Virus record (IMG/VR): IMGVR_UViG_3300042868_003000
From: an uncultured virus (IMG/VR IMGVR_UViG_3300042868_003000)
Lineage: Duplodnaviria; Heunggongvirae; Uroviricota; Caudoviricetes
Reading direction: 5' to 3' (one strand)
Length of the DNA: 64,000 nucleotides
Part shown: positions 13,803 through 22,836 of the stretch, piece after piece
Layout of the letters: the number at the start of each line of letters is the position of its first letter
Position numbering within the stretch: position 1 is the first letter of the stretch
Program-made: the position numbers and the translations under genes
Notes under the pieces: model-generated
The model's input: the letters and a program-made list of their open reading frames with translations, nothing else
Database searches by the model: none
What the model was told of the DNA's origin: nothing

Positions 13803-15752
13803 TTAGGTAATTAATTGTCCTGTTTCCTCAAACCAAAGATAATCTAATACTGAGGTATTTAAAGTCTCTATGGCTTGCTTTGGTGTTTCTACCAAAGGTT
13901 TGCCGGCAAGGTTAAAACTGGTATTTAAAAGAATCCCATGACCCGAAAGTTTTTTAAATTCAACCAAAAGGTCATACAAGTATCCTTCGGATACGGTCTG
14001 TACTCTACATGTGTTATCTACATGAGTGACACCAGGAATTAAATCGGTTTTAACATCAAATGATTGTGTCATAAACAAATTCTTTTTGGTTCTACCCATA
14101 TCGAAATATAACTCAGCATCTTCTTCTAGTACAACAACAGCAAATGGTCTGTACCATTCTCTACGTTTAATTTTATTAACAATGTCCTTCGCATCAGCAT
14201 TTAGAGCATTAAACAAAATTGAACGGTTGCCTAATGCACGTTGGCCAGCTTCAGCCAGACCAGTATATACTGCAACAGATTTATTATCGTAAAGTAATTT
14301 TGCAATATCATTCACTGATGCATCAACACCTTTATAGGATGTAACATCATGTTTAAATCCATGAAATGAAATACTTTTCTGTGGACGAATCTTTGTGTCA
14401 CCAGTTTCTTTACGATAATGACGCATTGCTATGCCAATGGAAAGGCCACTATCAATAGATAATGGTTCAAAGTAGAATTCAACATCCGGAAACTTTTCCG
14501 TGTAATATGAATTAGCTAAAATGTTCATTCCATAACCACCGCAAATACAAACTTTCTTTAATCCAGTTTTGTCTATTGCTTTTTTAATTAAATTAACAGC
14601 CACATCTTGTGTTTGTAATTGTAAGTCTTTAGCTAAATTCGCATAAGGCTTATAATTGGTTTTAGATATCAATCTCTGTACTGGTAAATCAGGCAACAGT
14701 ATTAATGATTCTGGTCCACCACGTTGAAGACCTTTTTTTTCTTCAACAGCTTTGTATTTAAAATTGGATGGATAACCATTTGGTGGCTCAAACAAAGGTA
14801 TAAAATCATGGCATTCACACACGAATTTATCACAGTCAACAAAATAATCATTTTTGGTATAGATATTTCCTGTTGGTGTTCCGTAAGAAGAAAGACCCAT
14901 AGCCTTGCCCGCTTCATCAGCTGTTTCACCAATTTGTAACGCACCTGCACTATACAATAAACCTATACCCATGTAATTACCGAAATGCACTTCACAATCA
15001 GGTAATTGTTTATTTAAACGTTCTATTTCTTTTGAATAGTCATGTCCTGAATATGAACCGTAATTTTTGTAAATTGGTTTAATTGGGTCTTTATAATTTG
15101 CAACATATAAAGATTCCGATTCTTTATAAGTCAAATATTTTCCAGTTTCTGCGGTTGCAAATGAAATTTCACCTGCACCATCGGCAACAAATACTATTGC
15201 TTCATCGAAACCACTATTATAAAAAGATAAAGCCGCATGATTGAGGTGATGATTACTATCATATTCAATTATAGGAAATTGTTTGTATTTTTTATAATAA
15301 TTTAATAGAAAATATCTAACATCTTCGGATGTTTTTTCCCATCCTTCTTCAATTTTTTTATAATTTTCTAATTGAATTAATTCTTCTGGTAAGTTATGTT
15401 TAATAGGAACGTCTAGTTCGTTTTCTAAATTTTCTGGATTCACACCAGTAAAAAACATTGGTGTACCTAATGCTTTTTTTGCCATTGTTGGCATAACTTT
15501 TGTAATTTTCTTGAACAAAGATTCATCATAATTGTGGTTGTTATGGATGCAGATTGCATGAAAACCACCAACAATAATTTTATCAAAAGTCAAATTGGTT
15601 TTCAATACGTTATGAAAACAGTTTTGCAATCGGTCATCATGTTTTTCACCACTATAACGTTCTTCTAAAAAATAAGTAATATTCTTACCGTCATAAATGC
15701 AACAAGAAGAATCGTGTGTTGCATGTTCACTATGTATAGCTAAAATTCTCAT
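13803..15752 (-). CDS. Carbamoyltransferase (NodU/CmcH family)
   Basis: Start MRILAIHSEH after GGAGG; HDSS, EERY, HHLNHA, GKAMGLSSYG, RALGNRS, KRREWYRPFA, LLNTSFN. Confidence 0.92.
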   Translation of the reverse strand: MRILAIHSEHATHDSSCCIYDGKNITYFLEERYSGEKHDDRLQNCFHNVLKTNLTFDKIIVGGFHAICIHNNHNYDESLFKKITKVMPTMAKKALGTPMFFTGVNPENLENELDVPIKHNLPEELIQLENYKKIEEGWEKTSEDVRYFLLNYYKKYKQFPIIEYDSNHHLNHAALSFYNSGFDEAIVFVADGAGEISFATAETGKYLTYKESESLYVANYKDPIKPIYKNYGSYSGHDYSKEIERLNKQLPDCEVHFGNYMGIGLLYSAGALQIGETADEAGKAMGLSSYGTPTGNIYTKNDYFVDCDKFVCECHDFIPLFEPPNGYPSNFKYKAVEEKKGLQRGGPESLILLPDLPVQRLISKTNYKPYANLAKDLQLQTQDVAVNLIKKAIDKTGLKKVCICGGYGMNILANSYYTEKFPDVEFYFEPLSIDSGLSIGIAMRHYRKETGDTKIRPQKSISFHGFKHDVTSYKGVDASVNDIAKLLYDNKSVAVYTGLAEAGQRALGNRSILFNALNADAKDIVNKIKRREWYRPFAVVVLEEDAELYFDMGRTKKNLFMTQSFDVKTDLIPGVTHVDNTCRVQTVSEGYLYDLLVEFKKLSGHGILLNTSFNLAGKPLVETPKQAIETLNTSVLDYLWFEETGQLIT

Positions 15753-15766
15753 AAATCCTCCAAATT

Positions 15767-15850
15767 TGGTACGAGTAACCGGAGTCGAACCGGTACGCAC
15801 AAGGCGGCAGATTTTAAGTCTGCTGGGTCTACCAATTCCCCCATACTCGC
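15767..15850 (-). tRNA. tRNA-Leu (UAA)
   Basis: Cloverleaf with long variable arm, loop CTTAAAA, CCA. Confidence 0.92.
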
Positions 15851-15851
15851 A

Positions 15852-16433
15852 TCACATGGTAGGTCCGTTTCCATTACGGAAACCGACCTCACCACCTTCT
15901 TCTTTAATTCTTTTGATAACATCTTCAAAAAGAATCGGTCTAAAATCTGTTTGTTCAACACAAACACAATGATATCTAGTATCAATTTCAGGCTTAGCTT
16001 TTGCATGTTTAGCAATCTTTACCCGATTTGCATGAAGGTGTCCATGAATGTTTACACCGAAACGACCAAGACTTTCCTCATGAATGGGAATATGAGACAG
16101 AATCATTCCGTTCATTACATGATAAGCACGTAGTTCACGGAAGTGTTGTCTGTATTCTTCATCACGAAAAATATCGTGGTTACCACGAATTAGAACCTTG
16201 TCACCGTTAAGTCTATACAGAGTACTCATTGCTTTACGGTTGATAACAACATCACCAAGATGATATACTTTATCATTTGGTCTGACTGTTTCGTTCCATC
16301 GCTTCACCATTTCTTCATCCATTTCATCAGGATTATCCCATGGCCTAAGCTTCGTCACACCATCATCACGTAGAAATCTACACACACCAGCGTGGCCAAA
16401 GTGTGTGTCACTTACTAAGAATACGCTTGGCAT
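15852..16433 (-). CDS. Calcineurin-like metallophosphoesterase
   Basis: SDTHFGH, HLGD, GNHD and HGHLH motifs; start MPSVF after AGGAG. Confidence 0.9.
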   Translation of the reverse strand: MPSVFLVSDTHFGHAGVCRFLRDDGVTKLRPWDNPDEMDEEMVKRWNETVRPNDKVYHLGDVVINRKAMSTLYRLNGDKVLIRGNHDIFRDEEYRQHFRELRAYHVMNGMILSHIPIHEESLGRFGVNIHGHLHANRVKIAKHAKAKPEIDTRYHCVCVEQTDFRPILFEDVIKRIKEEGGEVGFRNGNGPTM

Positions 16434-16451
16434 AATAAACTCCTTATTAAA

Positions 16452-16526
16452 TGGTCCGGCGTGCAGGAATCGAACCCACATTCACGGTGTAGAAGACCGC
16501 TGTATTATCCATTATACTAACGCCGG
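16452..16526 (-). tRNA. tRNA-Arg (UCU)
   Basis: Cloverleaf, GCGGT-CTTCTAC-ACCGT arm, CCA. Confidence 0.9.
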
Positions 16527-16532
16527 AATGTT

Positions 16533-16609
16533 TGGTGCCCCAGAGGAGAGTCGAACTCCTAAAATTTGGCTTCTAAGACCAACACGTATACCAATTCCGT
16601 CACCGGGGC
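16533..16609 (-). tRNA. tRNA-Leu (UAG), short variable loop
   Basis: TTGGT-CTTAGAA-GCCAA arm; only about 4-5 nt variable region; A73-CCA. Confidence 0.85.
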
Positions 16610-16622
16610 AATAAATACTAAC

Positions 16623-16847
16623 ATGATACCAACTTCAAAAAGACCTACAGTAGAAATGTTTTACGGATTATATGCACATCAAACATATGAGCCTAATGGT
16701 TACTACTGTATTGATTCTGAATTTGTTCCATCATATGATACTAAGATAAAAACTTTTGAAGATGATGAATTATATATCACACAAGAAAAAGAATTTATCT
16801 TAACAACATTAAAACAAGTTGGTGCTCCTACTAAGAATCGAACTTAG
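16623..16847 (+). CDS. Small hypothetical protein antisense within the tRNA array
   Basis: 74 aa MIPTSKRPTVEMFYG...; fills an AT-rich spacer; ATAAATA element at 16611-16617; 3' end overlaps tRNA-Thr. Confidence 0.5.
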   Translation: MIPTSKRPTVEMFYGLYAHQTYEPNGYYCIDSEFVPSYDTKIKTFEDDELYITQEKEFILTTLKQVGAPTKNRT

Positions 16848-16893
16848 GATACATCCTTACCATGGATGTGGTATGCCATTTACCTATAAGAGC
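16820..16893 (-). tRNA. tRNA-Thr (GGU)
   Basis: CATCC-ATGGTAA-GGATG arm, CCA. Confidence 0.9.
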
Positions 16894-16894
16894 A

Positions 16895-16971
16895 TGGTAC
16901 CCAAGGTGGGATTCGAGCCCACATCACCTTGCTTTTGAGACAAGTACGTATACCTATTCCGTCACTTGGGT
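16895..16971 (-). tRNA. tRNA-Leu (CAA), short variable loop
   Basis: CTTGT-CTCAAAA-GCAAG arm; short variable region; D arm nearly identical to Leu-UAG. Confidence 0.85.
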
Positions 16972-16976
16972 ATTAT

Positions 16977-17052
16977 TGGTGCCAATAAACGGAGTCGAAC
17001 CGCTGACACATAGATTTTCAGTCTACTGCTCTACCACCTGAGCTATATTGGC
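16977..17052 (-). tRNA. tRNA-Phe (GAA)
   Basis: Canonical cloverleaf, loop CTGAAAA. Confidence 0.93.
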
Positions 17053-17056
17053 ATGT

Positions 17057-17131
17057 TGGTACCCCGTGACAGTTTCGAACTGCCGACCTTCGCCGTGTAA
17101 AAGCACTGCTCTACCACTGAGCTAACGGGGC
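17057..17131 (-). tRNA. tRNA-Val (UAC)
   Basis: Cloverleaf, loop TTTACAC, CCA. Confidence 0.88.
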
Positions 17132-17136
17132 ATATT

Positions 17137-17211
17137 TGGGGAGAAATACCAGGATCGAACTGGTGATAACGGAATCACAACCCGTGGTTTTACCACTAAA
17201 CTAATTTCTCC
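17137..17211 (-). tRNA. tRNA-His (GUG)
   Basis: Loop TTGTGAT; encoded G-1 opposite C73. Confidence 0.92.
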
Positions 17212-17214
17212 ATA

Positions 17215-17700
17215 TTACTGAATTTCTTCCTGTTCTGCCAGAATTCTTTTCAATCTGTCAGCACAGAAACTTGCAGCAGGTGCATCTGGTTTAACCATTG
17301 GTGTCATGTTACATGTACCTTTAATATAACCAATCGCTTGCTGAACAACACATGAACTACCATGAATATCATCTTTATTCAAATCAAGATGAACTTCAAC
17401 ATGATAATCTTCCAACACTTCTGCTAATGATTGGAACAATTCTGAAACTTTATAAACTTCAGTCATCAACCTCATAGCAGGTTTACTTTTCTTATGGTCG
17501 TAATCCAATTCACGGTGAACATATCCGAAAATCTTACAACCATGTCGGCCATCAATATGAACTACAACTGCTAGAGCATAGTCAGCATACCAAACACCAT
17601 TTACCCTGATTCTTTCAGAGTCGGCACCAAGATAAACCTTGGTATCAGGACCTTGATTTGCAAGGTATTGTCTGACTTCTTCTATATTGAAATTTTTCAT
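17215..17700 (-). CDS. RNase H-like YkuK (DUF458) family protein
   Basis: VYLGADS...RLMTEV...EVHLDLN...VKPDAPAASFCAD pattern; start MKNFNIEE after AAGGTGA. Confidence 0.8.
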   Translation of the reverse strand: MKNFNIEEVRQYLANQGPDTKVYLGADSERIRVNGVWYADYALAVVVHIDGRHGCKIFGYVHRELDYDHKKSKPAMRLMTEVYKVSELFQSLAEVLEDYHVEVHLDLNKDDIHGSSCVVQQAIGYIKGTCNMTPMVKPDAPAASFCADRLKRILAEQEEIQ

Positions 17701-17721
17701 ATTAATCACCTTTTTTAAAAT

Positions 17722-17795
17722 TGGCATCCCGCCAGGGACTCGAACCCCGACTAATGGTTTTGGAGACCATCGTGCTGCCATTACACCAGCGAGAT
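17722..17795 (-). tRNA. tRNA-Trp (CCA)
   Basis: ATGGT-CTCCAAA-ACCAT arm, G73-CCA. Confidence 0.92.
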
Positions 17796-19631: not shown

Positions 19632-19723
19632 TGGTACCAGCGGAGGGAATCAAACCCTCTCAAGAACGCTAATCTGGCGCTAAAAGTCTTATAAGGACTC
19701 TCTGACTGTCAAGTCTCGCTGGC
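19632..19723 (-). tRNA. Atypical tRNA with UAU anticodon (Ile), compact D arm and long variable arm
   Basis: GCCAGCG/CGCTGGT acceptor; GACT-TGAC-AGTC D arm; loop CTTATAA; AGCGC/GCGTT variable hairpin; CCA. Confidence 0.75.
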
Positions 19724-19822: not shown

Positions 19823-19914
19823 TGGCGGAAGACGGAGGAGTCGAACCCCATCCCATTTCTGAGAACCTGGTTTTCAAGGCCAGTCGCAGGACCAACCCCG
19901 CTGCATCATCTTCC
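19823..19914 (-). tRNA. tRNA-Ser (UGA) with 8/4 acceptor/T-stem fold
   Basis: GGAAGATG/CGTCTTCC 8 bp; GGGG/CCTC 4-bp T stem; loop CTTGAAA; long variable arm. Confidence 0.85.
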
Positions 19915-19987: not shown

Positions 19988-20061
19988 TGGCTGGGGTACC
20001 TTGAATCGAACAAGGACCTACGGATTCAAAGTCCGCAGCACTGCCACTATGCTATACCCCA
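19988..20061 (-). tRNA. tRNA-Gln (UUG)
   Basis: Loop CTTTGAA, U1:A72, G73-CCA. Confidence 0.93.
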
Positions 20062-20072
20062 ATAAACTACGA

Positions 20073-20148
20073 CAAATTTTTAAAGAACAGTGTGTATTGT
20101 ATATCAGATTCGATGACCTGGCAACCACTGTGTTGTATTGAAACAACA
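20073..20148 (-). promoter_or_regulatory. Operator palindrome + sigma70 promoter + rrn-type boxA (module 1)
   Basis: TGTTGT-N6-ACAACA (20131-20148); TTGCCA-17-TACAAT (20096-20124); TGTTCTTTAAAAATTTG (20073-20089). Confidence 0.78.
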
Positions 20149-20151
20149 AAC

Positions 20152-20184
20152 AAAAAACCCTAGATTTTTTAGGTCTAGGGTCTT
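20152..20184 (-). terminator. Intrinsic terminator (attenuator) downstream of the leader ORF
   Basis: Minus strand AAGACCCTAGA-cctaaaaaa-TCTAGGG followed by TTTTTT. Confidence 0.85.
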
Positions 20185-20215
20185 GTGTTTGGAGTCTTTT
20201 TTTAGAACTTATGTA

Positions 20216-20326
20216 TTAGTTCTCTCTCTTTACACAAAACCCAGTCGGCGCCCATGAGCTATCACCACAATTAATTGTGCGATACTCTGGCTGTAACGTA
20301 AAGGATATGTGTTTAAAATTTGTCAT
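20216..20326 (-). CDS. Putative attenuator leader peptide containing all 20 amino acids
   Basis: MTNFKHISFTLQPEYRTINCGDSSWAPTGFCVKREN*; ATG 7 nt from the -10 box (leaderless); codons 29-32 complementary to the terminator 5' arm. Confidence 0.75.
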   Translation of the reverse strand: MTNFKHISFTLQPEYRTINCGDSSWAPTGFCVKREN

Positions 20327-20332
20327 AGTGTT

Positions 20333-20361
20333 ATTATATAGGAACTTTTATGTCTTGGCAA
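20333..20361 (-). promoter_or_regulatory. Sigma70 promoter of the leader-peptide transcript
   Basis: TTGCCA-17-TATAAT, then 6 nt to the ATG. Confidence 0.8.
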
Positions 20362-20374
20362 GCGGTTTTTAAAA

Positions 20375-20908
20375 TTATTTTTTAAATCCGTAAAAAAATA
20401 ATTCGGGAGTCTTATTTGTTTCAAACTTGTAGGTATGAAACATACTATCCATATCAAAGTTTTTACGAAAATCTTCTTCTGTAAGATTACTGTAATATTC
20501 CCAACCTTTTGCAATGGTTAAAGGACTATCATTTGGTGCTTTATTGGATGTACCATGTTCAGGATAACCTGTTGTTGGTACTACGATAAAAACTAATCCA
20601 TCTTTTTTGGTCATACGATACATGTTTTGAAATGTTTCTATCCAATGTGGATTGTGTTCAAAACAATTACAAGAACCTGTGGTGTCATATGTGCCATCTG
20701 CATGGTCGACAAGCTGGCCTTCGCAAACCAAATCAACATCTTTACCCGCATCCACATCAACACCAACATATTCACAATTTGTAAAATGAGTTCTCATTGT
20801 ACCGTTGATGTTTAAACTTCCAACCTCCAGCATCTTTATGTTGTTAAAATTTTGTGGAAATTCGTTTGATAATTTTTTAACAAATTCTTGTTGAGTTGGA
20901 TGCGACAT
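20375..20908 (-). CDS. Class I SAM-dependent methyltransferase
   Basis: MLEVGSLNING, YVGVD and CFEH motifs. Confidence 0.8.
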   Translation of the reverse strand: MSHPTQQEFVKKLSNEFPQNFNNIKMLEVGSLNINGTMRTHFTNCEYVGVDVDAGKDVDLVCEGQLVDHADGTYDTTGSCNCFEHNPHWIETFQNMYRMTKKDGLVFIVVPTTGYPEHGTSNKAPNDSPLTIAKGWEYYSNLTEEDFRKNFDMDSMFHTYKFETNKTPELFFYGFKK

Positions 20909-22532: not shown

Positions 22533-22607
22533 TGGTGGGCCGACTAGGAATTGAACCTAGACTCAATGAATTATGAGTTCACTGCTTTACCATTAAGCTA
22601 TCGGCCC
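22533..22607 (-). tRNA. tRNA with CAU anticodon, probably Ile2 (lysidine type)
   Basis: GGGCCGA acceptor, loop CTCATAA, CCA; Ile2 versus Met is inferred. Confidence 0.85.
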
Positions 22608-22790
22608 TTATTTGATATATTCTAATGATTCTTTCCGCATTAATTTAGGCGTTTCCCTAATACCAATGTTTTTGATTACGTAAACGAATTGTACCCCATC
22701 AATCTCTTTAGTCTCTGGTGAACAAACGTAGTAATTCTCCAACGTGGTTTTTACACGTACTTTTTTGATGTATTGTTTTTCAGTTTTCAT
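22608..22790 (-). CDS. Small hypothetical protein
   Basis: 60 aa ORF directly after a promoter. Confidence 0.6.
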   Translation of the reverse strand: MKTEKQYIKKVRVKTTLENYYVCSPETKEIDGVQFVYVIKNIGIRETPKLMRKESLEYIK

Positions 22791-22799
22791 AATGTCTCA

Positions 22800-22836
22800 A
22801 TTATACAATAAAAAAAGGGGTCTGTCAAGACCCCTT
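22800..22836 (-). promoter_or_regulatory. Overlapping intrinsic terminator and sigma70 promoter
   Basis: Hairpin GGGGTC-TTGACA-GACCCC followed by a T run; TTGACA-17-TATAAT. Confidence 0.8.

What the first reader, a model, noticed from the sequence alone, without database searches (positions are those of the whole stretch)
20152..20361. Candidate pan-amino-acid attenuator: a 36-codon leader using all 20 amino acids upstream of the phage tRNA array
Seen in sequence (minus strand): promoter TTGCCA-17-TATAAT (20361-20333). Six nt later comes an ATG, so the mRNA is probably leaderless. The ORF 20326-20216 reads MTNFKHISFTLQPEYRTINCGDSSWAPTGFCVKREN* and contains all 20 amino acids; 19 appear by codon 26, Val at codon 32. 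It uses 30 different codons and samples several isoacceptors (Thr ACA/ACG/ACT, Ser TCC/AGC/TCA, Ile ATA/ATT, Arg CGC/AGA, Gly GGT/GGG, Pro CCA/CCG, Lys AAA/AAG). Codons 29-32 (GGGTTTTGTGT, 20242-20232) can form an 11-bp helix with ACACAAGACCC (20188-20178). That partner overlaps the 5' arm of the downstream intrinsic terminator (20184-20152), so the two helices are mutually exclusive. A further hairpin spans about codons 13-25 and could be a pause site. Directly downstream starts an array with tRNAs for all 20 amino acids. Established: trp/his/thr attenuators use this layout but are enriched for one or two amino acids. Inference: stalling at almost any codon leaves the antiterminator free and allows read-through, making this a general sensor of tRNA loss (host anticodon nucleases, starvation) that induces the phage's replacement tRNAs. 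I do not know of a described all-codon attenuator. Caveat: a second promoter lies just after the terminator, so the switch may only boost expression.
Basis: partly seen in the sequence, partly recalled or inferred. Interest (0 to 1): 0.95.

Follow-up and report, generated by a model that had tools for sequence, protein, structure and literature searches.

The report
Leader-peptide attenuator before phage tRNAs
A short, conserved coding leader with switchable RNA hairpins sits directly in front of a freshwater phage's tRNA genes and keeps nearly every amino acid within its 30-43 codons, which suggests that the phage gauges how well the cell can decode before it makes more of its own tRNAs.

Summary
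The sequence features are real. On the minus strand there is a near-consensus promoter (20361-20333), a 36-codon ORF (20326-20216) with all 20 amino acids, an intrinsic terminator (20184-20152), a second promoter (20124-20096) and tRNA-Gln.

One all-20 ORF is not rare by itself: P is about 1.2e-3 per random 36-mer, and 1 of 439 short ORFs in the window has it.

The unit does recur. I found 77 related viral contigs using an RNA motif only:
- A tRNA starts 4-98 nt after the terminator in 75 of 77.
- 21 of those 75 have no second promoter.
- Every ORF indel seen in A2/A3 is a multiple of 3.
- Synonymous changes avoid or respect the predicted helices.
- Folds give a trp-type 1:2 / 2:3 / 3:4 switch.

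Of 40 distinct peptides, 26 keep 20 types and 9 keep 19. That is more than tree simulations (P about 0.001-0.002) or module shuffles allow.

Best reading (0.5): a ribosome-mediated attenuator that reports general decoding capacity.

Corrections: the array lacks tRNA-Ala, Val cannot be sensed, and a broad-sensing uORF is already known (whiB7). Nothing was tested experimentally.

The parts
20333..20361 (-). Promoter P1, TTGCCA-17-TATAAT. The ATG starts at the 7th base after the -10 hexamer, so the mRNA is probably leaderless.
   Evidence: 11 of 12 matches. The -35 and -10 hexamers are conserved in alignment A2. Other lineages keep the promoter but carry a 27-33 nt 5'UTR and a GTG or ATG start.
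20216..20326 (-). Leader ORF of 36 codons plus stop, with all 20 amino-acid types
   Evidence: An intact homologous ORF is present in 77 of 77 motif-found loci. Every ORF indel visible in A2 and A3 is a multiple of 3. L11 and Q12 show synonymous variation in an unpaired linker.
20302..20312 (-). Segment 1 (ACACAUAUCCU, codons 5-9), which pairs with segment 2 in the untranslated full-length RNA
   Evidence: MFE fold. The RNAalifold consensus of 37 leaders has the same helix. 94.6% of cells are paired and changes are one-sided only. Relatives have a stronger CAUAAACCC version.
20252..20290 (-). Central hairpin over codons 13-25, a candidate pause hairpin
   Evidence: 98-99.6% of cells are paired. 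No synonymous variation in its arms: R16 is CGC in 38 of 38, Y15 is TAT in 38 of 38, D25 is GAT in 38 of 38. L128 and L121 rebuild it with different bases.
20232..20242 (-). Segment 2 (GGGUUUUGUGU, codons 29-32), the 5' arm of the antiterminator
   Evidence: GGG is the codon in 38 of 38 sequences, TTT in 34 of 38 and TGT in 34 of 38. Class C changes Phe-Cys to Val-Arg yet keeps GGG..GUGU.
20178..20188 (-). Segment 3 (ACACAAGACCC), which pairs with segment 2 or with the terminator's 3' arm
   Evidence: It is nearly invariant while the distal terminator stem and loop vary. Its variants G>A and A>G keep pairing.
20152..20184 (-). Intrinsic terminator: stem ACCCUAGA/UCUAGGGU, 9-nt loop, U-run at 20157-20152
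   Evidence: 5 of 17 pairs show changes on both sides across 37 leaders.
20096..20124 (-). Promoter P2, TTGCCA-17-TACAAT, between the terminator and the first tRNA
   Evidence: A P2-like site is present in 54 and absent in 21 of 75 evaluable family loci.
19988..20061 (-). tRNA-Gln(UUG), the first gene of the array that runs down to 12948
   Evidence: The first tRNA after the unit is Gln(UUG) in 67 of 75 loci, Ser(UGA) in 5, Glu in 2 and Trp in 1.

Best explanation
The unit is a ribosome-mediated (trp-type) transcription attenuator at the head of the tRNA operon of a T4-like freshwater phage.

Proposed mechanism:
- Host RNA polymerase starts at P1, and a ribosome translates the 30-43 codon leader.
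- If the ribosome keeps pace, it covers segment 2 (codons 29-32 in the window) while segment 3 and the terminator are being made. The terminator then forms and transcription stops.
- If the ribosome stalls anywhere from the start to about four codons before segment 2, segment 1 is masked or separated and segment 2 is free. It pairs with segment 3, the terminator cannot form, and transcription runs on into the tRNA genes.
- With no ribosome at all, segment 1 pairs with segment 2 and the terminator forms.

The leader has no run of one codon. It carries 16-19 of the 19 non-Met amino-acid types ahead of segment 2, and this diversity appears to be maintained by selection. The switch would therefore report slow decoding at almost any amino acid (charged-tRNA shortage, tRNA loss, codon mismatch) and raise, or feed back on, phage tRNA synthesis.

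Shown in silico: the conserved parts, the reading frame, the alternative pairings, the adjacency to tRNAs, and the retention of amino-acid diversity.

Inferred: the transcription start, translation of the ORF, pausing at the hairpin, regulated read-through, and what is sensed.
For: Architecture:
- Promoter, ORF, terminator and tRNA are in place.
- The full-length fold gives 1:2 plus the hairpin plus the terminator, at -50.4 kcal/mol and z = -3.98.
- Without the terminator's 3' arm the fold gives the 11-bp 2:3 helix, z = -4.22.
- RNAalifold on 37 leaders returns the same 1:2, hairpin and terminator.
- In 12 representative leaders, segment 2 pairs with the segment-1 region in 11 of 12 full-length folds and with segment 3 in 9 of 12 truncated folds.
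- With a modelled stalled ribosome, a 2:3 helix of at least 10 bp is the MFE in 12 of 12 for A-site codons from 1 up to four or five codons before segment 2 (up to codon 25 of 36 in the window), and is lost beyond that.

Conservation:
- 77 of 80 fetched motif hits are family loci, and all 77 carry an intact ORF.
- A tRNA lies 4-98 nt after the U-run in 75 of 77; the other 2 are truncated. 21 of the 75 have no P2.
- Five terminator pairs are compensatory.
- L128 keeps the 2:3 helix (13 bp) and the hairpin using different bases, and L121 changes U to C in both segment 2 and segment 4 opposite the same G.

Coding overlaid on RNA structure:
- Every ORF indel in A2/A3 is a multiple of 3.
- Synonymous variation occurs in linkers (T10, L11, Q12, T34, V38) or in pairing-compatible form (CAC/CAT, AAA/AAG). 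None occurs in helix codons.

Amino-acid diversity:
- 35 of 41 distinct peptides from peptide-based searches have 20 types.
- In the peptide-independent sample, 26 of 40 have 20 types, 9 have 19, 1 has 18 and 4 have 17.
- Tree simulations that keep the positions of change: 33/38 observed against 20 +/- 4, P = 2e-4 to 8e-4. Eight further settings gave P from 0/4000 to 0.0035.
- Unbiased sample: 26 observed against 12.6-13.5 +/- 5, P = 0.001-0.002 with NJ and 0/3000 with UPGMA.
- Module shuffle: 0.641 observed against 0.399 +/- 0.060, reached in 0 of 20000 shuffles.
- Relocations: Q12H is followed by P13Q (L087) or by H6Q (P0001). Only 10 of 236 possible nonsynonymous changes create Gln. Class C shows an H5R+R15H swap.

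Precedent: in the whiB7 uORF, composition sets which starvations are sensed (PMC10274678).
Against: - There is no experimental or transcript-end evidence. Contigs from RNA libraries were uninformative.
- Within alignment A2 the 1:2, hairpin and 2:3 helices show no two-sided covariation, only invariance and one-sided compatible changes. Some cells are unpaired, notably class C in the 2:3 register.
- Segment 3 also pairs with the U-rich tail in the full fold, which could explain its invariance on its own.
- In class C and L116 the truncated fold keeps 1:2 rather than 2:3.
- P2 in 54 of 75 loci means the switch can at most add to constitutive tRNA transcription there.
- Diversity is not absolute: 14 of 40 distinct peptides lack at least one type, and one lineage has 17-18.
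- Val (missing ahead of segment 2 in 29 of 41 peptides) and often Gly or Cys occur only in segment 2.
- About 15-16 types sit in codons that RNA structure fixes anyway, so part of the all-20 property may be inherited.
- Recombination between modules inflates the inferred number of changes and so the significance of the tree simulations.
- Related sequences are not independent in the module shuffle.
- Leader codons match the phage tRNA set no better than expected: 33 of 36 against 81%.
Confidence: 0.5

Rival explanations
1. It is an attenuator, but a generic one. The switch senses only whether translation as a whole keeps up with transcription (host shut-off, ribosome-targeting stress, coupling). 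On this view the high amino-acid diversity is a by-product of RNA-constrained codons and shared ancestry, not a selected sensor property.
For: The architecture evidence is the same as for the main explanation. Many types are encoded by codons fixed by helices. 14 of 40 distinct peptides lack at least one type and one lineage has 17-18. toiL shows that a uORF can respond to many translation stresses without special composition (PMC12121999, abstract).
Against: Retention of types exceeds nulls that keep the positions of change and exceeds module shuffles. L11 and Q12 are conserved as amino acids, with synonymous variation, in an unpaired linker. Lost Gln is regained at other positions twice.
Confidence: 0.2
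2. It is a stand-alone small-protein gene with its own early promoter and terminator. The 30-43 aa peptide would be the functional product, for example a host-takeover or anti-defence peptide. Its place before the tRNAs and the alternative helices would be incidental, with the terminator simply insulating it and the upstream operon from the tRNA unit.
For: The frame is conserved and there is a core Y-R-T..C.D.SW motif. The unit has its own promoter and terminator. P2 is present in 54 of 75 loci. Leader peptides with functions of their own exist, such as peTrpL (PMC7968998, search listing only).
Against: Conserved core codons lack synonymous variation and coincide with helices, which points to RNA-level rather than peptide-level constraint. 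L128 and L121 change core residues (E14N, R16H, T17A) while rebuilding the hairpin. Either Cys can be lost. N- and C-termini are freely exchanged. In 21 loci the tRNAs have no promoter other than this unit. There is no Pfam-independent family hit: PHROGs gave 0 hits for 3 peptides.
Confidence: 0.15
3. It is a structured small RNA, possibly dual-function. The promoter-to-terminator transcript of about 175-215 nt would be a stable phage RNA acting in trans, and the ORF would be secondary.
For: The fold is strong relative to shuffles, z about -4. Nucleotide blocks are invariant. In 5'UTR-bearing classes a long-range 5'UTR:3'UTR helix closes the molecule. Attenuator-derived sRNAs are known, such as rnTrpL (PMC7968998, listing only).
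Against: There is no Rfam family at E <= 1. All ORF indels in A2/A3 are in frame, and the start and stop are kept in 77 of 77 loci. Amino-acid-level conservation with synonymous change occurs in unpaired linkers.
Confidence: 0.08

Closest known systems
whiB7 5' leader uORF attenuator of mycobacteria (PMC10274678; abstract and passages read)
   Same: A uORF is followed by a Rho-independent terminator with an antiterminator. Stalling in the uORF gives read-through. [quoted passage not shown]
   Different: The whiB7 uORF is cellular, controls a transcription factor, is described by that paper as longer and more diverse than classic leaders, and is enriched for Ala. Here the element is in a phage, is compact (30-43 codons), has no enriched residue, sits directly before tRNA genes, and appears to maintain its diversity by compensating changes. 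No sequence relation was tested or is expected.
Classical leader-peptide attenuators of amino-acid operons (trp, his, leu, thr, ilv, pheA; established knowledge, recalled)
   Same: A four-segment 1:2 / 2:3 / 3:4 layout, a short ORF near the promoter, a hairpin within the leader, and an intrinsic terminator before the regulated genes.
   Different: Those leaders are enriched for the cognate amino acid(s) and regulate biosynthetic enzymes. This one has no enrichment and precedes tRNAs. No Rfam leader family matched at E <= 1.
toiL, the multipurpose uORF of topAI-yjhQ in E. coli (PMC12121999; abstract read)
   Same: A single short uORF in which stalls at different positions change downstream RNA structure, so that many translation stresses are sensed.
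   Different: toiL acts through ribosome-binding-site occlusion and Rho-dependent termination and responds to antibiotics. Here the terminator is intrinsic and a tRNA array lies downstream.
Polycysteine leaderless short ORFs as attenuators in mycobacteria (bioRxiv 10.1101/834739; search listing and start of abstract only)
   Same: Leaderless short ORFs at the 5' end of a transcript act as amino-acid-responsive attenuators. The window's version is probably leaderless.
   Different: They are enriched for Cys, act on cellular operons, and I did not read their mechanistic details.
T-box riboswitches (established knowledge, recalled)
   Same: They couple tRNA charging status to a terminator/antiterminator choice.
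   Different: They bind one specific uncharged tRNA directly, without translation. There was no Rfam T-box hit here.

Membership tests
Ribosome-mediated (leader-peptide) transcription attenuator | A short ORF close to the promoter that is translated | tested here: inconclusive
   The ORF with an ATG or GTG start is intact in 77 of 77 loci. All ORF indels in A2/A3 are multiples of 3. Synonymous variation is seen at L11 and Q12. Translation itself was not observed.
Ribosome-mediated (leader-peptide) transcription attenuator | An intrinsic terminator between the leader ORF and the regulated genes | tested here: met
   A stem followed by a U-run. 5 of 17 pairs are compensatory across 37 leaders. 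A tRNA lies 4-98 nt downstream in 75 of 77 loci.
Ribosome-mediated (leader-peptide) transcription attenuator | An antiterminator helix that excludes the terminator and whose 5' arm lies where a translating ribosome covers it | tested here: inconclusive
   The 11-bp 2:3 helix is the MFE without segment 4, in 9 of 12 truncated folds and in 12 of 12 stalled-ribosome models. 96.6% of cells are paired but there is no two-sided covariation in A2. Matched changes occur in L121 and L128.
Ribosome-mediated (leader-peptide) transcription attenuator | An anti-antiterminator (1:2) pairing that gives default termination without translation | tested here: inconclusive
   It is present in the MFE of 11 of 12 representatives and in the RNAalifold consensus. 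Only one-sided changes are seen.
Ribosome-mediated (leader-peptide) transcription attenuator | Regulatory codons enriched for the amino acid that is sensed | tested here: not met
   No residue is enriched. The window peptide has 20 types in 36 codons, and family members have 17-20 types.
Ribosome-mediated (leader-peptide) transcription attenuator | Read-through responds to the supply of charged tRNA | not testable with these tools
   This needs reporter assays, Term-seq or in vitro coupled assays. The RNA-library contigs were uninformative.
whiB7-type broad-sensing uORF attenuator | A diverse uORF composition that sets the spectrum of starvations sensed | tested here: inconclusive
   Diversity is present and retained beyond the nulls. 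The sensing spectrum was not tested. Homology to whiB7 leaders was not examined.
Curated RNA families (Rfam 15: amino-acid leaders, T-box, others) | A match to a covariance model | tested here: not met
   No hit in 20145-20361 at E <= 1. Between 12000 and 23500 there were only tRNA and tRNA-like hits.
Known phage protein families (PHROGs) | A profile match of the peptide | tested here: not met
   0 families for 3 leader peptides at E <= 0.01. tblastn against 50,697 phage records gave only 6 hits, all with E >= 3.

The most novel reading that the evidence does not exclude
A family of T4-like freshwater phages carries a compact 'pan-amino-acid' decoding sensor. It is a 30-43 codon leader kept by selection to sample nearly every amino acid, wired through a trp-type terminator/antiterminator switch to the phage's own tRNA array. 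Depletion of almost any charged tRNA would then switch on, and sufficiency would switch off, synthesis of the replacement tRNAs. Possible causes of depletion include a codon-usage mismatch, starvation or host tRNA-cleaving defences.
Probability: 0.4. Interest if true: 0.9.

Novelty: new variant of a known kind. Interest (0 to 1): 0.8.

Why it matters
How phages regulate their tRNA arrays is largely unknown. Current debate focuses on why they carry them: codon usage, or escape from host tRNA-targeting defences.

A leader-peptide attenuator ahead of the array would be a first cis-regulatory logic for viral tRNA genes. In seven searches of the paper library I found none described.

It would also extend attenuation from 'one operon, one amino acid' to a compact sensor of overall decoding capacity.

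The family offers natural experiments:
- versions with and without a second promoter;
- leaderless versions and versions with a 5'UTR;
- variants that have lost single amino-acid types.

It is also small enough for direct reporter tests and for use as a synthetic translation-stress sensor.

Tried and rejected
- DNA searches of GenBank phages with the 501-bp region found nothing in near mode and only tRNA-like matches in distant mode. A tblastn with a leader peptide gave 6 hits, all with E >= 3.
- No whole genome is held for the window.
I located its locus with a degenerate DNA pattern instead.
- P0007 from the representative search is a repeat protein with a local match, and I dropped it.
- L153, L160 and L195 are high-GC contigs that match the motif by chance, and I dropped them.
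- L020-L022 carry a 62%-identical methyltransferase but no leader.
- RNA evidence: 24 runs hold only 0.06-0.16 of the sampled words. The contigs of X1-X4 mostly cover tRNAs. One contig of a relative spans 20172 to 19981, from the terminator loop through P2 into tRNA-Gln, and one spans 20277-20427. No run covers 20212-20268. DNA carry-over cannot be excluded, so nothing follows for start, end or read-through.
- Codon-to-anticodon matching: 33 of 36 leader codons are readable by the phage tRNA set against 81% of codons in 45 long ORFs, which is not significant.
- A single-step neighbour analysis (11 pairs) was too small to show depletion of hits on singleton residues.
- I considered and rejected a disulfide or metal-binding peptide, because either Cys is lost in some lineages.
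- I considered and rejected a pyrBI-like mechanism in which the ribosome blocks the terminator directly, because the stop codon lies 34 nt before the terminator stem.
Full report
**1. The observation**

Reading the minus strand confirms the following:
- TTGCCA-17-TATAAT at 20361-20333, 11 of 12 matches.
- An ATG whose A is the 7th base after the -10 hexamer.
- The ORF 20326-20216, MTNFKHISFTLQPEYRTINCGDSSWAPTGFCVKREN*. It has 20 amino-acid types, 19 of them by codon 26, Val at codon 32, and 30 distinct sense codons.
- GGGTTTTGTGT at 20242-20232 and ACACAAGACCC at 20188-20178.
- A terminator at 20184-20152.
- A second promoter, TTGCCA-17-TACAAT, at 20124-20096, followed by tRNA-Gln at 20061-19988.

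One claim fails. The 27 tRNAs found by ARAGORN cover 19 amino acids and none is for Ala. Rfam adds only a sub-threshold tRNA-like hit at 19827-19914 and no other family in the region at E <= 1.

The headline statistic is weaker than it looks. With this phage's composition, a random 36-mer starting with Met has all 20 types with P = 1.2e-3 (31-mer: 1.8e-4). Among 439 six-frame ORFs of 25-45 aa in the window, one (this one) has 20 types and four have 19.

**2. What the window is**

Pfam marks a T4-like phage: T4-type portal, gp44-like clamp loader, UvsW-like helicase and a family B polymerase. The genes upstream of the unit are a methyltransferase, an unknown ORF, dCMP deaminase, rubredoxin and rubrerythrin.

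No close relative is among 50,697 GenBank phage records.

**3. Relatives**

Relatives were collected in several ways:
- The upstream methyltransferase brought 23 viral contigs, 18 of which carry the small ORF.
- An alignment of the peptides brought 62 viral and 35 metagenome loci.
- A profile search of 1.84 billion proteins gave 7 family members and one spurious repeat protein.

Those searches favour conserved peptides. I therefore also searched viral contigs with an RNA motif only: segment 3, a gap, then the terminator tail.
- This gave 91 stretches, of which 80 were fetched.
- Three are unrelated high-GC contigs.
- The other 77 all carry an intact ORF of 30-43 codons, giving 40 distinct peptides.

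**4. Context is constant**

- In 75 of the 77 loci a tRNA gene on the same strand starts 4-98 nt after the U-run. The other two loci are cut short.
- The first tRNA is Gln(UUG) in 67, Ser(UGA) in 5, Glu in 2 and Trp in 1.
- A P2-like promoter lies between the terminator and the tRNA in 54 of the 75. In 21 there is none and the tRNA starts 4-45 nt after the terminator (examples).
- In those lineages the first tRNAs can be reached from this promoter only by reading through the terminator.
- What lies upstream varies: a methyltransferase, other ORFs, or tRNA-Arg and tRNA-Met.

**5. The ORF is coding, overlaid on RNA structure**

- Every indel inside the ORF in alignments A2 and A3 is a multiple of three, while the untranslated flanks have 1-, 2- and 4-base indels.
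- Codon by codon (38 distinct ORF sequences), synonymous variation is common in the predicted linkers. Examples are T10 (ACG/ACA/ACC), L11 (TTA/TTG/CTA), Q12 (CAG/CAA), T34 and V38.
- Inside helices, variation occurs only in pairing-compatible form: H6 (CAC/CAT), K7 (AAA/AAG), G24 (GGT/GGC).
- Helix codons otherwise do not vary: P8 is CCC in 31 of 31, Y15 is TAT in 38 of 38, R16 is CGC in 38 of 38, D25 is GAT in 38 of 38, G35 is GGG in 38 of 38.
- L11 and Q12 are thus conserved as amino acids where no pairing is predicted.

**6. The RNA switch**

Folding results:
- The full leader folds with segment 1 (codons 5-9) paired to segment 2 (codons 29-32). This encloses a 16-bp hairpin over codons 13-25 and leaves the terminator formed (-50.4 kcal/mol, z = -3.98).
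- Without the terminator's 3' arm, segment 2 pairs with segment 3 over 11 bp (z = -4.22).
- RNAalifold on 37 leaders gives the same 1:2 helix, hairpin and terminator.
- Of 12 representatives, 11 show 1:2 in the full fold and 9 show 2:3 in the truncated fold. Class C and L116 keep 1:2.
- I also folded only the RNA 3' of a modelled stalled ribosome. In all 12, a 2:3 helix of at least 10 bp is the minimum-energy state for A-site codons from 1 up to four or five codons before segment 2, which is up to codon 25 in the window. Beyond that it is lost.

Covariation:
- It is clear only for the terminator: 5 of 17 pairs are changed on both sides.
- The 1:2, hairpin and 2:3 helices are 94.6-99.6% paired, but with invariant or one-sided changes only.

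Divergent lineages add support:
- L128 has segment 2 GGGGTTTGTGTA and segment 3 TACACAAACCTC (13 bp in the fold). It has a rebuilt hairpin, AATTATCG/CGATAATT, and a covarying terminator.
- L121 has U-to-C changes in both segment 2 and the terminator's 3' arm, opposite the same G of segment 3.
- Class C turns Phe-Cys into Val-Arg but keeps GGG..GUGU.

A caveat: segment 3 also pairs with the U-rich tail in the full fold, which may explain part of its invariance.

**7. Amino-acid diversity**

- From the peptide-based searches, 35 of 41 distinct peptides have 20 types.
- In the motif-based sample, 26 of 40 have 20 types, 9 have 19, 1 has 18 and 4 have 17. The last four belong to one 30-aa lineage that lacks Ala and Gly.
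- Ahead of segment 2, my script counted 16-19 types in 25-31 codons, against a random mean of 13-14. That script also counted an internal Met as a type. The types most often missing there are Val and Gly.

Tree simulations kept, on an inferred tree, every branch and column where a change occurred but drew the new residue at random:
- 33/38 observed against 20 +/- 4, P = 2e-4 to 8e-4.
- P from 0/4000 to 0.0035 over eight settings.
- In the unbiased sample, 26 observed against 12.6-13.5 +/- 5, P = 0.001-0.002 with NJ and 0/3000 with UPGMA.

Shuffling four peptide modules among the observed sequences gives 0.399 +/- 0.060 all-20 peptides, against 0.641 observed. This was reached in 0 of 20000 shuffles.

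Individual relocations fit the same picture:
- Q12H (19 types, three loci) is followed in L087 by P13Q and in P0001 by H6Q. Only 10 of 236 possible nonsynonymous changes create Gln.
- Class C shows an H5R+R15H swap.
- Either Cys may be lost, but never both.

Limits of these tests:
- Recombination inflates the inferred number of changes.
- Related sequences are not independent.
- About 15-16 types sit in RNA-constrained codons.
- The relocations were noticed after the fact.

**8. Mechanism**

The best-supported reading is a trp-type, ribosome-mediated attenuator.
- A ribosome that keeps pace covers segment 2 while segment 3 and the terminator are transcribed, so transcription terminates.
- A ribosome stalled before about codon 25 frees segment 2 for segment 3, so transcription reads through into the tRNAs.
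- With no ribosome, 1:2 forms and transcription terminates. This would also stop transcripts arriving from the upstream genes.

The leader samples nearly all amino acids instead of repeating one, so the signal would be general decoding capacity.

Val lies only in segment 2 in most variants. Under this model it cannot be sensed.

Where P2 exists the switch can only add to tRNA transcription. Where P2 is absent, the switch gates it.

All steps beyond sequence, folding and conservation are inferred. Contigs from four lake metatranscriptomes were uninformative.

**9. Comparison with what is known**

The nearest described system is the whiB7 uORF attenuator. It has a uORF, a Rho-independent terminator and an antiterminator. 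[quoted passage not shown]

toiL is a uORF that senses many translation stresses, but it acts through Rho (PMC12121999, abstract).

What is new here:
- the setting, a phage tRNA array;
- the compactness of the leader;
- the apparent selection for a complete amino-acid set.

Seven searches of the paper library found no phage tRNA-array attenuator. The library lacks most subscription-journal papers, including the older work on the T4 and T5 tRNA regions.

**10. Verdict**

The element is real and conserved. It is most likely an attenuator, with about 0.5 for the full 'general decoding sensor' reading and about 0.7 for an attenuator of any kind. It is a new variant of a known kind and is readily testable.

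Noticed in passing
window 19988-20061 and the first tRNA in L129-L208: The tRNA-Gln(UUG) that follows the unit is extremely diverse. There are 20 distinct sequences among 69 genes, with median pairwise identity 0.62 and minimum 0.47. The terminator, P2 and flanks around it are nearly identical. This looks like repeated replacement of, or diversifying pressure on, this one tRNA.
   Followed up: partly
window 20072-20088 (minus strand GTTCTTTAAAAATTTGT): A box between P2 and the first tRNA is conserved across classes. A near copy, GTTCTTTTAAAATTTG, is present even in L158, which lacks P2. It could be a processing or protein-binding site.
   Followed up: no
L054, L044, L070, L102, L116 (5'UTR-bearing leaders): The MFE folds pair the 5'UTR stretch UUUUUUAGAA, just before the purine-rich pre-start region, with the conserved 3'UTR box UUCUAAAAAA over about 10 bp. 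This closes the whole leader and would hide the ribosome-binding region in the finished transcript. The leaderless window type lacks the 5' partner.
   Followed up: no
window 19827-19914: A tRNA-like element is not called by ARAGORN and scores below threshold as tRNA-Sec in Rfam (35.3 against 47 bits). Relatives have a tRNA-Ser(UGA) at the matching place. RNA-library contigs cover it heavily.
   Followed up: partly
window 22533-22836: A terminator-like hairpin overlaps a perfect TTGACA-17-TATAAT promoter (22828-22800). A 60-aa ORF (22790-22608) follows, and its stop abuts tRNA-Met (22607-22533). The ORF has no Pfam or PHROG family.
   Followed up: no
L020-L022, downstream of the methyltransferase: More distant relatives (methyltransferase 62% identical) have no leader there. 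Instead they carry an ORF of about 70 aa followed by tRNAs. By recall only, it resembles an RNA polymerase omega subunit. This was not tested.
   Followed up: no
window 19632-19723: A 92-nt 'tRNA-Ile(tat)' has its anticodon at position 31, which is unusually long. In run X1, one RNA-library contig joins 19410 directly to 19723, so some relatives lack the 312 bases between tRNA-Cys and this gene.
   Followed up: no
window 13803-17781: Protein genes are interspersed in the tRNA array: a carbamoyltransferase (665 aa), a calcineurin-like phosphoesterase (209 aa) and an RNaseH-like protein (188 aa).
   Followed up: no
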